Of a stretch of 64,000 nt of DNA, positions 61,493 through 62,051 are shown in pieces. Below the pieces are notes generated by a model that was not told where the DNA came from, made no database searches, and saw nothing but the letters and a program-made list of their open reading frames with translations. The stretch lies in NCBI RefSeq assembly GCF_003334405.1, contig NZ_QOWM01000002.1; one strand, 5' to 3'. This DNA comes from Escherichia coli. GTDB lineage: Bacteria > Pseudomonadota > Gammaproteobacteria > Enterobacterales > Enterobacteriaceae. Within the stretch, counting starts at the first letter, position 1, and the number at the start of each line of letters is the position of its first letter. Made by a program: the position numbers and the translations under genes.

Positions 61493-62010
61493 ATGAACAT
61501 ATCCTTAATAACAAATTTATTTTTTAAAATAAAAAGCTGAAGCAGTATATATATCTGTTTGTGAATGTAAATAAATAACTCGTTCAGAAATAGCCAACTT
61601 GCTGGGATGTATTTATTTAATGAATTTTATAGTTACGATCATGTGAATAATAAGGTGCTGGTGAGGTGGTTTGTGGTGATAATTATTCATTACATGAATG
61701 TTTGCGCTGAAAAATAGGAAAATATATAGATAATTAAGGATAATATATTGGTTTTTTATATTCATATTTTGTATATTAATATCGAGACAATTTACATGGA
61801 ATGAAAAGACTGAATAGCTTGCAGAATCGGTATTGTCAGAGGTGTTAACAAGTAATTGAGACGGATTGTAAATGAGAAATTGCTTGATGTGCTTCACTCA
61901 TCAGACTTGGTGAACAAAGCACAATTTATTGAAAATTATCCCTATTATAGGAAAGGTCAAACGCTCATGCCGCATTTGCCAGAAAACAACGCGCACTTCG
62001 TCAGTAATTT

Positions 62011-62038
62011 GATTCGCCAGACACAGTCTGGCGAATTC
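62011..62038. repeat. Palindromic element (CAGAC-N3-GTCTG core) just downstream of the gltD stop
   Basis: GATTCGCCAGACACAGTCTGGCGAATTC; same family as copies at 54873 and 55632-55739. Confidence 0.7.
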
Positions 62039-62051
62039 ATTGTTACCTCGC

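What the first reader, a model, noticed from the sequence alone, without database searches (positions are those of the whole stretch)
61493..62051. Extremely AT-rich region between gltD and gltF
Seen in sequence: about 560 bp with long A/T runs (TTTTTTAAAATAAAAAGC, TATATATATC, TTTTTTATATTCATATTTTGTATATTAATATC), among the most AT-rich DNA in the window and flanked at the gltD end by a palindromic element. The two ORFs the track calls here (61613-61897 minus, 61856-62074 plus) are low-complexity and probably not genes. The region is a candidate H-NS nucleation site or promoter controlling gltF and the downstream chaperone-usher genes separately from gltBD.
Basis: inference. Interest (0 to 1): 0.25.

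Follow-up and report, generated by a model that had tools for sequence, protein, structure and literature searches.

The report
AT-rich upstream region of yhc fimbrial operon
The AT-rich stretch is real and is most likely the silenced control region of a cryptic fimbrial gene cluster carried by about a fifth of E. coli strains, which is ordinary; the hairpin at its edge belongs to a widespread, unexplained palindrome family tied to yhcG nuclease genes.

Summary
Observation confirmed. Window 61493-62051 is the 559-bp gltD-gltF spacer of a phylogroup-A E. coli. Its GC is 32.0% against 50.5% for the window, the lowest of any 559-bp stretch (z = -4.1).

It belongs to the beta-class chaperone-usher operon gltF-yhcADEF, not to gltBD. 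Only 1149 of 5426 complete E. coli genomes carry it. Homologous operons in two other Escherichia species, Enterobacter and Kluyvera all have 340-550 bp upstream regions at 26-31% GC, whichever gene lies upstream.

A sigma-70-like promoter (TTTACA-16-TATACT, 61571-61544, minus strand) is conserved in aligned position in one sister Escherichia lineage. The two ORFs are not genes. H-NS binding is supported only indirectly: a published table places yhcA/yhcD in an H-NS-bound region. No transcription start data could be reached.

In the three Escherichia arrangements the sense strand has more C than G, which suggests Rho-dependent insulation from gltBD.

The gltD-end palindrome is one of five copies in the window of a 25-nt family. 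Three copies lie in frame inside yhcG. The family recurs across phyla in YhcG/DUF1016 genes with compensatory stem changes.

The AT-rich region is ordinary (interest 0.3). The palindrome family is the novel lead.

The parts
62012..62036 (.). 25-nt perfect palindrome ATTCGCCAGAC-ACA-GTCTGGCGAAT, 15 nt 3' of the gltD stop. Probably a 3'-end hairpin of the gltBD transcript. It is the right-hand copy of the yhcG-associated palindrome family.
   Evidence: Inverted repeat I7. Folds at -22.6 kcal/mol on the gltD-sense strand, z = -5.6. No U-run follows it in the gltD sense. The same element is the only DNA shared with B2 strains downstream of gltD. Family membership.
61801..62011 (-). Distal spacer, 38% GC, specific to the K-12-type arrangement. 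Contains one near-consensus H-NS site (TCAATAAATT, 61923-61932 on the minus strand).
   Evidence: GC. No counterpart in the sister-species upstream regions L008 and L011 (alignment A2). Motif hit with one mismatch.
61493..61800 (-). Proximal AT-rich core, 25% GC. Putative regulatory region and 5' UTR of gltF-yhcADEF.
   Evidence: GC. Alignable with the regions upstream of the gltF homologues in two other Escherichia species. Conserved blocks include ATATTTTCCTATTTT, the ATTCAT-N3-ATGAAT palindrome at 61685-61699, and the -35 block.
61654..61679 (-). C-rich, G-poor tract in the gltD-to-gltF sense (TCACCACAAACCACCTCACCAGCACC). Candidate rut-like site for Rho.
   Evidence: Highest 78-nt C/G ratio (6.0) in the spacer. 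The sense strand overall has C/G 1.45, and 78% of 78-nt frames have C>G. Plus-strand GC skew is +0.23.
61544..61571 (-). Predicted sigma-70 promoter of gltF: -35 TTTACA (61571-61566), 16-nt spacer, -10 TATACT (61549-61544). The predicted start is near 61537, giving a 5' UTR of about 45 nt.
   Evidence: 10 of 12 consensus matches. The aligned position in L008 is TTTACA-16-TACACT. The count of promoter-like sites is not above the shuffled expectation, so the support is positional conservation, not statistics.
61502..61506 (-). Shine-Dalgarno sequence AAGGA, 9 nt before the gltF ATG (61492-61490).
   Evidence: Read from the sequence. AAGGA is invariant in the K-12-type, L008 and L011 alignment.
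56226..61492 (-). Beta-class chaperone-usher operon gltF-yhcA-yhcD-yhcE-yhcF, 44% GC, that the region precedes.
   Evidence: ORFs. RefSeq annotation of the identical K-12 locus: DUF1120 subunits, chaperone, usher. Literature classification as the beta-CU yhc locus (PMC5216030). GC.
54874..54898 (.). Left-hand extragenic copy of the palindrome family (ATTCTGCAGAC-ACT-GTCTGCAGAAT), between the convergent nanQ (yhcH) and yhcG genes.
   Evidence: Two stem positions differ from the right-hand copy and both changes are compensated.
55636..55738 (-). Three in-frame copies of the palindrome inside yhcG (55636-55660, 55675-55699, 55714-55738; 39-nt period), encoding IWQTLSAK, IPQTPSAE and IRQTMSGE.
   Evidence: The Pfam DUF1016_N match spans 166 residues against 136 model positions, consistent with two extra 13-aa units.

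Best explanation
The 559 bp are the upstream non-coding region of the beta-class chaperone-usher fimbrial operon gltF-yhcADEF. This operon is a low-GC accessory module that sits between gltD and yhcG in about 21% of E. coli.

Proposed mechanism, reading in the gltD-to-gltF sense:
1. gltBD transcripts meet a stable hairpin 15 nt after the gltD stop. Any read-through then crosses about 500 nt of untranslated RNA with more C than G, which Rho can terminate.
2. The fimbrial operon has its own sigma-70 promoter about 45 nt upstream of gltF.
3. The promoter is embedded in 25%-GC DNA of the kind that H-NS/StpA filaments coat, so the operon is silent in laboratory culture.

Shown here: the composition, the linkage of the region to the operon across lineages, the conserved promoter-like block, the hairpin, and the non-coding status of the ORFs. 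Inferred: H-NS occupancy of this exact interval, promoter activity, and Rho termination.
For: Composition is extreme.

Presence or absence tracks the yhc operon. The full region is in 1149 of 5426 complete genomes, all at 99% identity or more, while the gltD 3' end is in 5416. B2 strains have gltD, 67 bp, then nanQ. O157 and B1 strains have gltD, 183 bp, then yhcG.

Homologous operons in two other Escherichia species have upstream regions of 441-450 bp and 342 bp at about 30% and 31% GC. Those in Enterobacter mori and Kluyvera have 548 and 518 bp at 30% and 26% GC. In the last two the operon is inverted relative to gltD and follows the canonical sspB terminator, so it must carry its own promoter.

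The promoter-like site is conserved in alignment, as is the Shine-Dalgarno sequence.

C/G on the sense strand is 1.33-1.56 in the three co-directional Escherichia arrangements and 0.68-0.93 in the two that follow an intrinsic terminator.

Literature: the yhc locus is a beta-CU operon confined to phylogroup A with no reported expression (PMC5216030). A site at yhcA/yhcD lies in an H-NS-bound region (PMC10294691). yhcD behaves like prophage genes in RNA-polymerase redistribution (PMC5811629). A ChIP-exo study lists gltF among the targets of four newly characterised transcription factors whose sites it compared with RNAP-occupied promoter elements (PMC6237786).
Against: There is no direct H-NS occupancy, start-site or expression datum for this interval; I could not reach any.

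The H-NS high-affinity motif is not enriched: two hits within two mismatches, and 18% of same-size frames do as well.

Promoter-like sites are no more numerous than in shuffled sequence, and the conserved block is not evident in L011, L012 or L014.

RegulonDB-derived lists still treat gltF as part of a gltBDF unit under Lrp, and the hairpin lacks a U-run in the gltD sense, so read-through is plausible.

The C>G contrast rests on three lineages against two.
Confidence: 0.7

Rival explanations
1. The spacer has no promoter. gltF and the usher genes are expressed only by read-through from the gltB promoter (the classical gltBDF operon), and the AT-richness is neutral decay of unselected DNA.
For: The hairpin after gltD has no U-run in the gltD sense. 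gltF is listed with gltBD as an Lrp target taken from RegulonDB. The distal 211 bp have no homologue in sister species. Promoter-like sites are not above chance.
Against: Five lineages keep 340-560 bp of 26-32% GC DNA in front of the operon, including two where it follows the sspB terminator and cannot be fed by gltBD. Proximal blocks and the -35/-10 are conserved at about 58% mean column identity, while the adjacent gltF gene is only 67-74% identical. The operon is absent from about 79% of E. coli that keep gltBD.
Confidence: 0.15
2. The main role of the spacer in the Escherichia arrangement is as a Rho-dependent terminator or insulator that stops gltBD transcription from entering the fimbrial operon. 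The AT-rich DNA and H-NS merely assist.
For: The sense strand has C/G of 1.33-1.56, with 78-96% of 78-nt frames at C>G, in the three arrangements co-directional with gltD. It is 0.93 or lower in the two preceded by an intrinsic terminator. There is a C-rich tract at 61654-61679. About 500 nt are untranslated.
Against: Small sample (three lineages against two). No Rho data. This rival is compatible with the best explanation rather than exclusive of it.
Confidence: 0.3
3. The region encodes one or two small proteins (the 94-aa and 72-aa ORFs).
For: Both ORFs exist, and both have been deposited as 'hypothetical protein' in some GenBank E. coli records.
Against: No feature is annotated under the match in the listed RefSeq genomes or in K-12. 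No NCBIfam hit. Cluster members are all E. coli. No equivalent ORF in the homologous regions of L008 and L011, which differ by many indels that are not multiples of three. The 72-aa ORF overlaps the gltD 3' end and reads through the palindrome.
Confidence: 0.03
4. The region is an invertible phase-variation switch of the fimS kind: a promoter flanked by inverted repeats.
For: A 24-nt imperfect inverted repeat (61500-61523 and 61719-61742), with a perfect 10-nt core TATCCTTAAT/ATTAAGGATA, brackets the predicted promoter.
Against: By my rough estimate a 10-nt perfect repeat is expected by chance about 0.5 times in AT-rich DNA of this length. There is no recombinase gene in the locus. Every listed full-length copy aligns colinearly in one piece, apart from one interrupted by IS1. 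There is only one GATC, so no pap-like Dam switch either.
Confidence: 0.02

Closest known systems
Upstream regulatory regions of cryptic chaperone-usher fimbrial operons of E. coli K-12 that H-NS silences (ycb, ybg, yfc, yad, sfm, yra, yeh; Korea et al. 2010, recalled from memory and cited within PMC5216030)
   Same: A long AT-rich non-coding region in front of the major-subunit gene of a low-GC chaperone-usher operon. No expression reported in culture. The neighbouring operon DNA is reported as H-NS-bound.
   Different: The yhc (beta-class) operon was set aside in that work because K-12 carries IS5 in yhcE. Its upstream region lies directly downstream of, and co-directional with, a housekeeping operon (gltBD), so it was historically read as part of gltBDF. 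No hns-mutant data for it were found.
Xenogeneic silencing targets of H-NS/StpA (AT-rich, horizontally acquired DNA)
   Same: GC is 18 points below the genome. Strain distribution is patchy (21%). IS1 and IS5 insertions and deletions cluster here.
   Different: Occupancy of this interval was not verified. The operon occupies the same sspB-gltD neighbourhood in several genera, so it may be old and repeatedly lost rather than recently acquired.
REP elements and their RAYT transposases, as a general analogy for the palindrome: short extragenic palindromes associated with a particular nuclease or transposase gene
   Same: A short perfect palindrome family with compensatory stem changes, found next to and apart from one gene family.
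   Different: The copies also lie in frame inside the associated gene. Copy number per genome is low: five in this window and one detectable place per genome in most E. coli. The associated protein is a PD-(D/E)XK nuclease (DUF1016/YhcG, PADLOC candidate PDC-S02), not an HUH transposase. No mobility was shown.

Membership tests
H-NS-silenced (xenogeneic) promoter region | AT content well above the genome average over hundreds of bp | tested here: met
   32.0% GC over 559 bp and 25.3% over 308 bp, against 50.5% for the window; z = -4.1.
H-NS-silenced (xenogeneic) promoter region | Accessory or patchy distribution of the linked genes | tested here: met
   1149 of 5426 complete E. coli genomes. 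Phylogroup A only, according to PMC5216030.
H-NS-silenced (xenogeneic) promoter region | H-NS occupancy in vivo (ChIP) | not testable with these tools
   Only an indirect pointer: a site at yhcA/yhcD (MG1655 3362763) is flagged as H-NS-bound (PMC10294691 Table 1). The supplements of the primary ChIP paper are not held.
H-NS-silenced (xenogeneic) promoter region | High-affinity nucleation motif (TCGATAAATT-like; consensus recalled from memory) | tested here: inconclusive
   One site with one mismatch (61923-61932) and one with two mismatches. Not enriched against the window.
H-NS-silenced (xenogeneic) promoter region | Derepression in hns or stpA mutants | not testable with these tools
   No dataset that names gltF or yhcA could be read.
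Chaperone-usher operon 5' regulatory region | Lies immediately upstream of the first subunit gene of an operon encoding chaperone, usher and subunits | tested here: met
   The order is gltF (DUF1120), yhcA (PapD-like), yhcD (usher), yhcE, yhcF (DUF1120).
Chaperone-usher operon 5' regulatory region | The region travels with the operon irrespective of the upstream neighbour | tested here: met
   Upstream regions of 26-31% GC and 342-548 bp occur in four other lineages, two after gltD and two after sspB.
Chaperone-usher operon 5' regulatory region | Own promoter | tested here: inconclusive
   A consensus-like site is conserved between the K-12 type and L008. No start-site data.
Intrinsic (Rho-independent) terminator, for the palindrome | GC-rich stem-loop followed by a U-run on the transcribed strand | tested here: not met
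   The stem is present, but in the gltD sense it is followed by CAAATTACTG, and it was not called by the terminator scan. The B2 version has T-rich tails on both sides.
Invertible fimS-like switch | Recombinase gene present and both orientations present in the population | tested here: not met
   No recombinase in the locus. The listed full-length copies are colinear.
Known RNA families (Rfam) | Covariance-model match | tested here: not met
   No match with E-value of 1 or less in 60500-63000.

The most novel reading that the evidence does not exclude
The palindrome at the gltD end is a copy of a previously undescribed cis-element of YhcG/DUF1016 PD-(D/E)XK nuclease genes (PADLOC defence candidate PDC-S02). 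The element is a 25-nt hairpin, ATT-NNN-CAGAC-loop-GTCTG-N'N'N'-AAT.

It is kept as a perfect palindrome by compensatory changes across bacterial and archaeal phyla, even inside the coding sequence. There it forces residue 2 and residues 7-8 of the peptide I-x-Q-T-x-S-x-x to covary according to base pairing. It also occurs just upstream of such genes and as solitary extragenic copies.

On this reading the hairpin is a nucleic-acid signal used by the gene: a nuclease target, an autoregulatory site or a recombination site. The two extragenic copies in this window would then mark the borders of the 7.1-kb yhcG-plus-fimbrial segment that B2 strains lack.
Probability: 0.4. Interest if true: 0.7.

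Novelty: new member of a known kind. Interest (0 to 1): 0.3.

Why it matters
For the AT-rich region the value is corrective. gltF is still often treated as the third gene of a glutamate-synthase operon. The comparative data show that it is the first gene of a strain-variable beta-class fimbrial operon with its own AT-rich control region, which also gives a defined 559-bp fragment to test for H-NS silencing and Rho insulation.

For the palindrome, a hairpin conserved by covariation inside a protein-coding gene family with more than 20,000 representatives would be a rare case of nucleic-acid structure overriding amino-acid choice. It could also give a handle on the unknown function of YhcG-family defence candidates.

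Tried and rejected
- Rfam scan of 60500-63000 found nothing.
- Promoter and terminator scans: the number of promoter-like sites is not above the shuffled expectation.
- H-NS consensus motif is not enriched.
- Scans for IHF, CRP, Lrp, CpxR and PhoB consensus sites gave nothing clearly above shuffles. The best is an Lrp-like match with two mismatches overlapping the -10.
- A pap-like Dam switch is rejected because there is a single GATC.
- A fimS-like inversion is rejected.
- Small-protein reading of the two ORFs is rejected.
- I tested whether the extragenic palindrome copies and the distal spacer are relics of a yhcG coding sequence, using a family HMM against six-frame translations. Only the motif itself aligns, at E about 0.2-0.4, so the idea is not supported.
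- A GltF-based scan of one genome per species found no close relative. Homologues came from the protein search instead.
- The L008 and L011 alleles are absent from complete E. coli genomes.
- Literature: no paper with gltF start-site or H-NS data could be read. Several identifiers are not held, several supplements are not held, and the cap on papers was reached. As a result PMC9881135, which mentions DUF1016 in the context of programmed inversions, could not be read.

Full report
**What the window is.** ORFs and RefSeq annotation of identical DNA identify the end of the window. On the minus strand the order is gltB, gltD (62052-63470), a 559-bp spacer, gltF (60728-61492), yhcA, yhcD, yhcE, yhcF, then yhcG (54914-56041), followed by the convergent nan operon. 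The window is 99.9% identical to K-12 MG1655 here, but it lacks the IS5 that interrupts yhcE in MG1655.

**Checking the observation.** The interval 61493-62051 is exactly the gltD-gltF spacer.
- Its GC is 32.0% against 50.5% for the window.
- No 559-bp frame outside it is below 35.1%, and z = -4.1.
- It has three sub-parts: a proximal core at 25% GC (61493-61800), a distal part at 38% (61801-62011), and 40 bp at 50% that hold a perfect 11-bp-stem palindrome (62012-36).
- The quoted A/T runs are present.
- TpA steps are twice the window average, and a 23-nt A/T-only run lies at 61513-61535.

**The region belongs to the fimbrial operon, not to gltBD.** The gltD 3' end is in 5416 of 5426 complete E. 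coli genomes. The full spacer is in only 1149 (21%), always at 99% identity or more. Three architectures exist:
- B2 strains such as UTI89 have gltD, 67 bp, then the convergent nanQ. They share only the last 40 nt, the palindrome, with the window. About 950 genomes match in this way.
- O157:H7, B1 and other strains have gltD, 183 bp, then yhcG, with a different hairpin after gltD.
- K-12-type strains have the spacer plus gltF-yhcADEF inserted between gltD and yhcG.

A paper on ETEC pili classifies this locus as the beta-class chaperone-usher locus yhc. It finds it only in phylogroup A and notes that no expression or adhesin data exist (PMC5216030).

**Related operons elsewhere.** GltF homologues are rare (17 proteins). 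Their contexts are informative.
- Two other Escherichia species carry the operon in the same place and orientation. Their gltD is 93-94% identical to the window's, but the operon is only about 74% identical. The spacers are 441-450 bp and 342 bp.
- In Enterobacter mori and Kluyvera the operon lies between sspB and gltD in the opposite orientation. The first subunit gene sits 548 and 518 bp after a canonical sspB terminator.
- Every one of these upstream regions is 26-31% GC in loci of about 50% GC.

Long AT-rich DNA in front of the first subunit gene is therefore a conserved property of this operon class, independent of the upstream neighbour. In two lineages the operon cannot be fed by gltBD.

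**Anatomy of the spacer.** The only strong promoter-like site on the gltF strand is TTTACA-16-TATACT (61571-61544), with 10 of 12 consensus matches. In the alignment with the sister Escherichia allele it is matched column for column by TTTACA-16-TACACT. The AAGGA ribosome-binding site (61506-61502) is invariant across the three Escherichia alleles. Other conserved blocks are ATATTTTCCTATTTT and a 6-3-6 palindrome, ATTCAT-TAC-ATGAAT, at 61685-61699, which is a candidate operator. Counts of promoter-like sites do not exceed shuffled sequence, so the argument rests on positional conservation.

**The two ORFs.**
- They are not annotated in the listed RefSeq genomes or in K-12.
- They match no NCBIfam family.
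- They occur only as E. coli 'hypothetical' GenBank entries.
- They have no counterpart in the homologous regions of the sister species.

They are not genes.

**Relation to gltBD.**
- The hairpin after gltD is stable, at -22.6 kcal/mol with z = -5.6, but no U-run follows it in the gltD sense. Read-through is therefore plausible, and RegulonDB-derived lists keep gltF with gltBD.
- The sense strand of the spacer has C/G = 1.45, with a C-rich, G-poor tract at 61654-61679. The other two co-directional Escherichia spacers have C/G of 1.33-1.56.
- The Enterobacter and Kluyvera regions, which follow an intrinsic terminator, have C/G of 0.68-0.93.

I infer that Rho acts on about 500 nt of untranslated RNA with more C than G and helps to insulate the operon. 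This is suggestive only, since it compares three lineages with two.

**H-NS.** I could not reach occupancy data for the interval. The indirect pointers are these:
- A PhoB ChIP-seq paper marks its site at the yhcA/yhcD junction as lying in an H-NS-bound region of the Kahramanoglou dataset (PMC10294691).
- yhcD is among the mostly prophage genes that gain RNA polymerase and transcript in an rpoZ mutant (PMC5811629).
- A ChIP-exo study lists gltF among the targets of four newly characterised transcription factors whose sites it compared with RNAP-occupied promoter elements (PMC6237786).
- The consensus nucleation motif is not enriched.
- The region and the neighbouring yhcA-gltF spacer attract IS1 and IS5.

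H-NS silencing is therefore the likeliest state, but it remains an inference.

**The palindrome.** A search for the element showed five copies of ATT-NNN-CAGAC-nnn-GTCTG-N'N'N'-AAT in the window, where 0.03 are expected.
- One copy is at the gltD end (62012).
- One lies between nanQ and yhcG (54874).
- Three lie in frame inside yhcG with a 39-nt period (55636, 55675, 55714), encoding IWQTLSAK, IPQTPSAE and IRQTMSGE.
- The variable triplets are complementary in each copy, apart from one G-T wobble in the middle yhcG copy. Orthologous copies in other Escherichia carry other compensated triplets.

Of its 133 matches:
- 91 lie in an ORF with YhcG-family similarity;
- about ten others lie within roughly 100 nt of a YhcG-like match;
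- 81 have perfectly complementary variable triplets, against 7.6 when the partners are permuted;
- 23 distinct paired triplets occur.

The scan fixes the outer and inner stem bases by construction, so I added a protein-level test. In 150 diverse family representatives, the first base of codon 2 predicts residue 8 (T gives K, C gives E, G gives Q) in 32 of 53 unambiguous cases. Permutation gives 13.8 on average and at most 24.

YhcG has the DUF1016_N and YhcG_C (PD-(D/E)XK) domains, with about 30 extra residues at the repeats. It matches the PADLOC defence candidate PDC-S02, and enterobacterial alleles carry one to three units. The extragenic copies are not detectable relics of yhcG coding sequence.

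I know of no description of this element, but I could not read the one paper that might bear on it.

**Verdict.** The AT-rich spacer is a real but ordinary feature: the control region of a cryptic, strain-variable fimbrial operon. It probably carries its own promoter, is probably silenced by H-NS, and is probably insulated from gltBD by a hairpin plus Rho. The direction of evolution, insertion in phylogroup A or loss elsewhere, is unresolved. The operon's presence at the same locus in other genera, together with the direct hairpin copies that bracket the 7.1-kb segment, fits either. The palindrome family is the part that deserves follow-up.

Noticed in passing
window 59850-59862 (minus strand), start of yhcD: The usher gene has a 1-nt deletion in the poly-A run just after its ATG: ATGTT-A7-CG here against A8 in MG1655. 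The annotated start is therefore out of frame, and the longest in-frame ORF is 738 aa from a TTG. This is either a pseudogene or a slipped-strand on/off tract.
   Followed up: partly
window 56939-57490: yhcE is intact here. MG1655 has IS5 inserted in it.
   Followed up: yes
window 54874-54898, 55636-55738, 62012-62036; loci L015-L134: A 25-nt palindrome family with compensatory stem changes, found inside, next to and apart from YhcG/DUF1016 nuclease genes across bacterial and archaeal phyla. It imposes codon-complementarity covariation on the peptide I-x-Q-T-x-S-x-x.
   Followed up: partly
window 54914-56041 (yhcG): YhcG matches the PADLOC phage-defence candidate PDC-S02 (E = 3e-131). It has no NCBIfam model and no solved relative. 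Enterobacterial alleles differ in length by 13-aa repeat units (349, 362 and 375 aa).
   Followed up: partly
L002 (NZ_CP022912.1), L003 (NZ_CP145663.1) and hit H1 (NZ_CP026929.2): IS1 sits in or at the edge of the AT-rich spacer in some strains. L002 and L003 share the same IS1 junction inside yhcG but retain 42 and 302 bp of the spacer, a pattern like nested IS1-mediated deletions that remove the whole fimbrial operon.
   Followed up: partly
window 60557-60727 (yhcA-gltF spacer): A second AT-rich spacer (30% GC, 171 bp) lies inside the operon. A laboratory-evolution study reports an IS5 insertion in this spacer in all resistant clones, of unknown significance (PMC8403718).
   Followed up: no
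L012 (Enterobacter mori), L014 (Kluyvera): The homologous beta-class fimbrial operon lies between sspB and gltD in the opposite orientation. Kluyvera has three tandem DUF1120 subunit genes. The sspB-gltD interval therefore looks like a long-standing variable site in Enterobacteriaceae.
   Followed up: partly
window 9778-10336, 48890-49448, 38107-39589: These are the other low-GC stretches of the window (35-39% GC over 559 bp). They were not examined.
   Followed up: no
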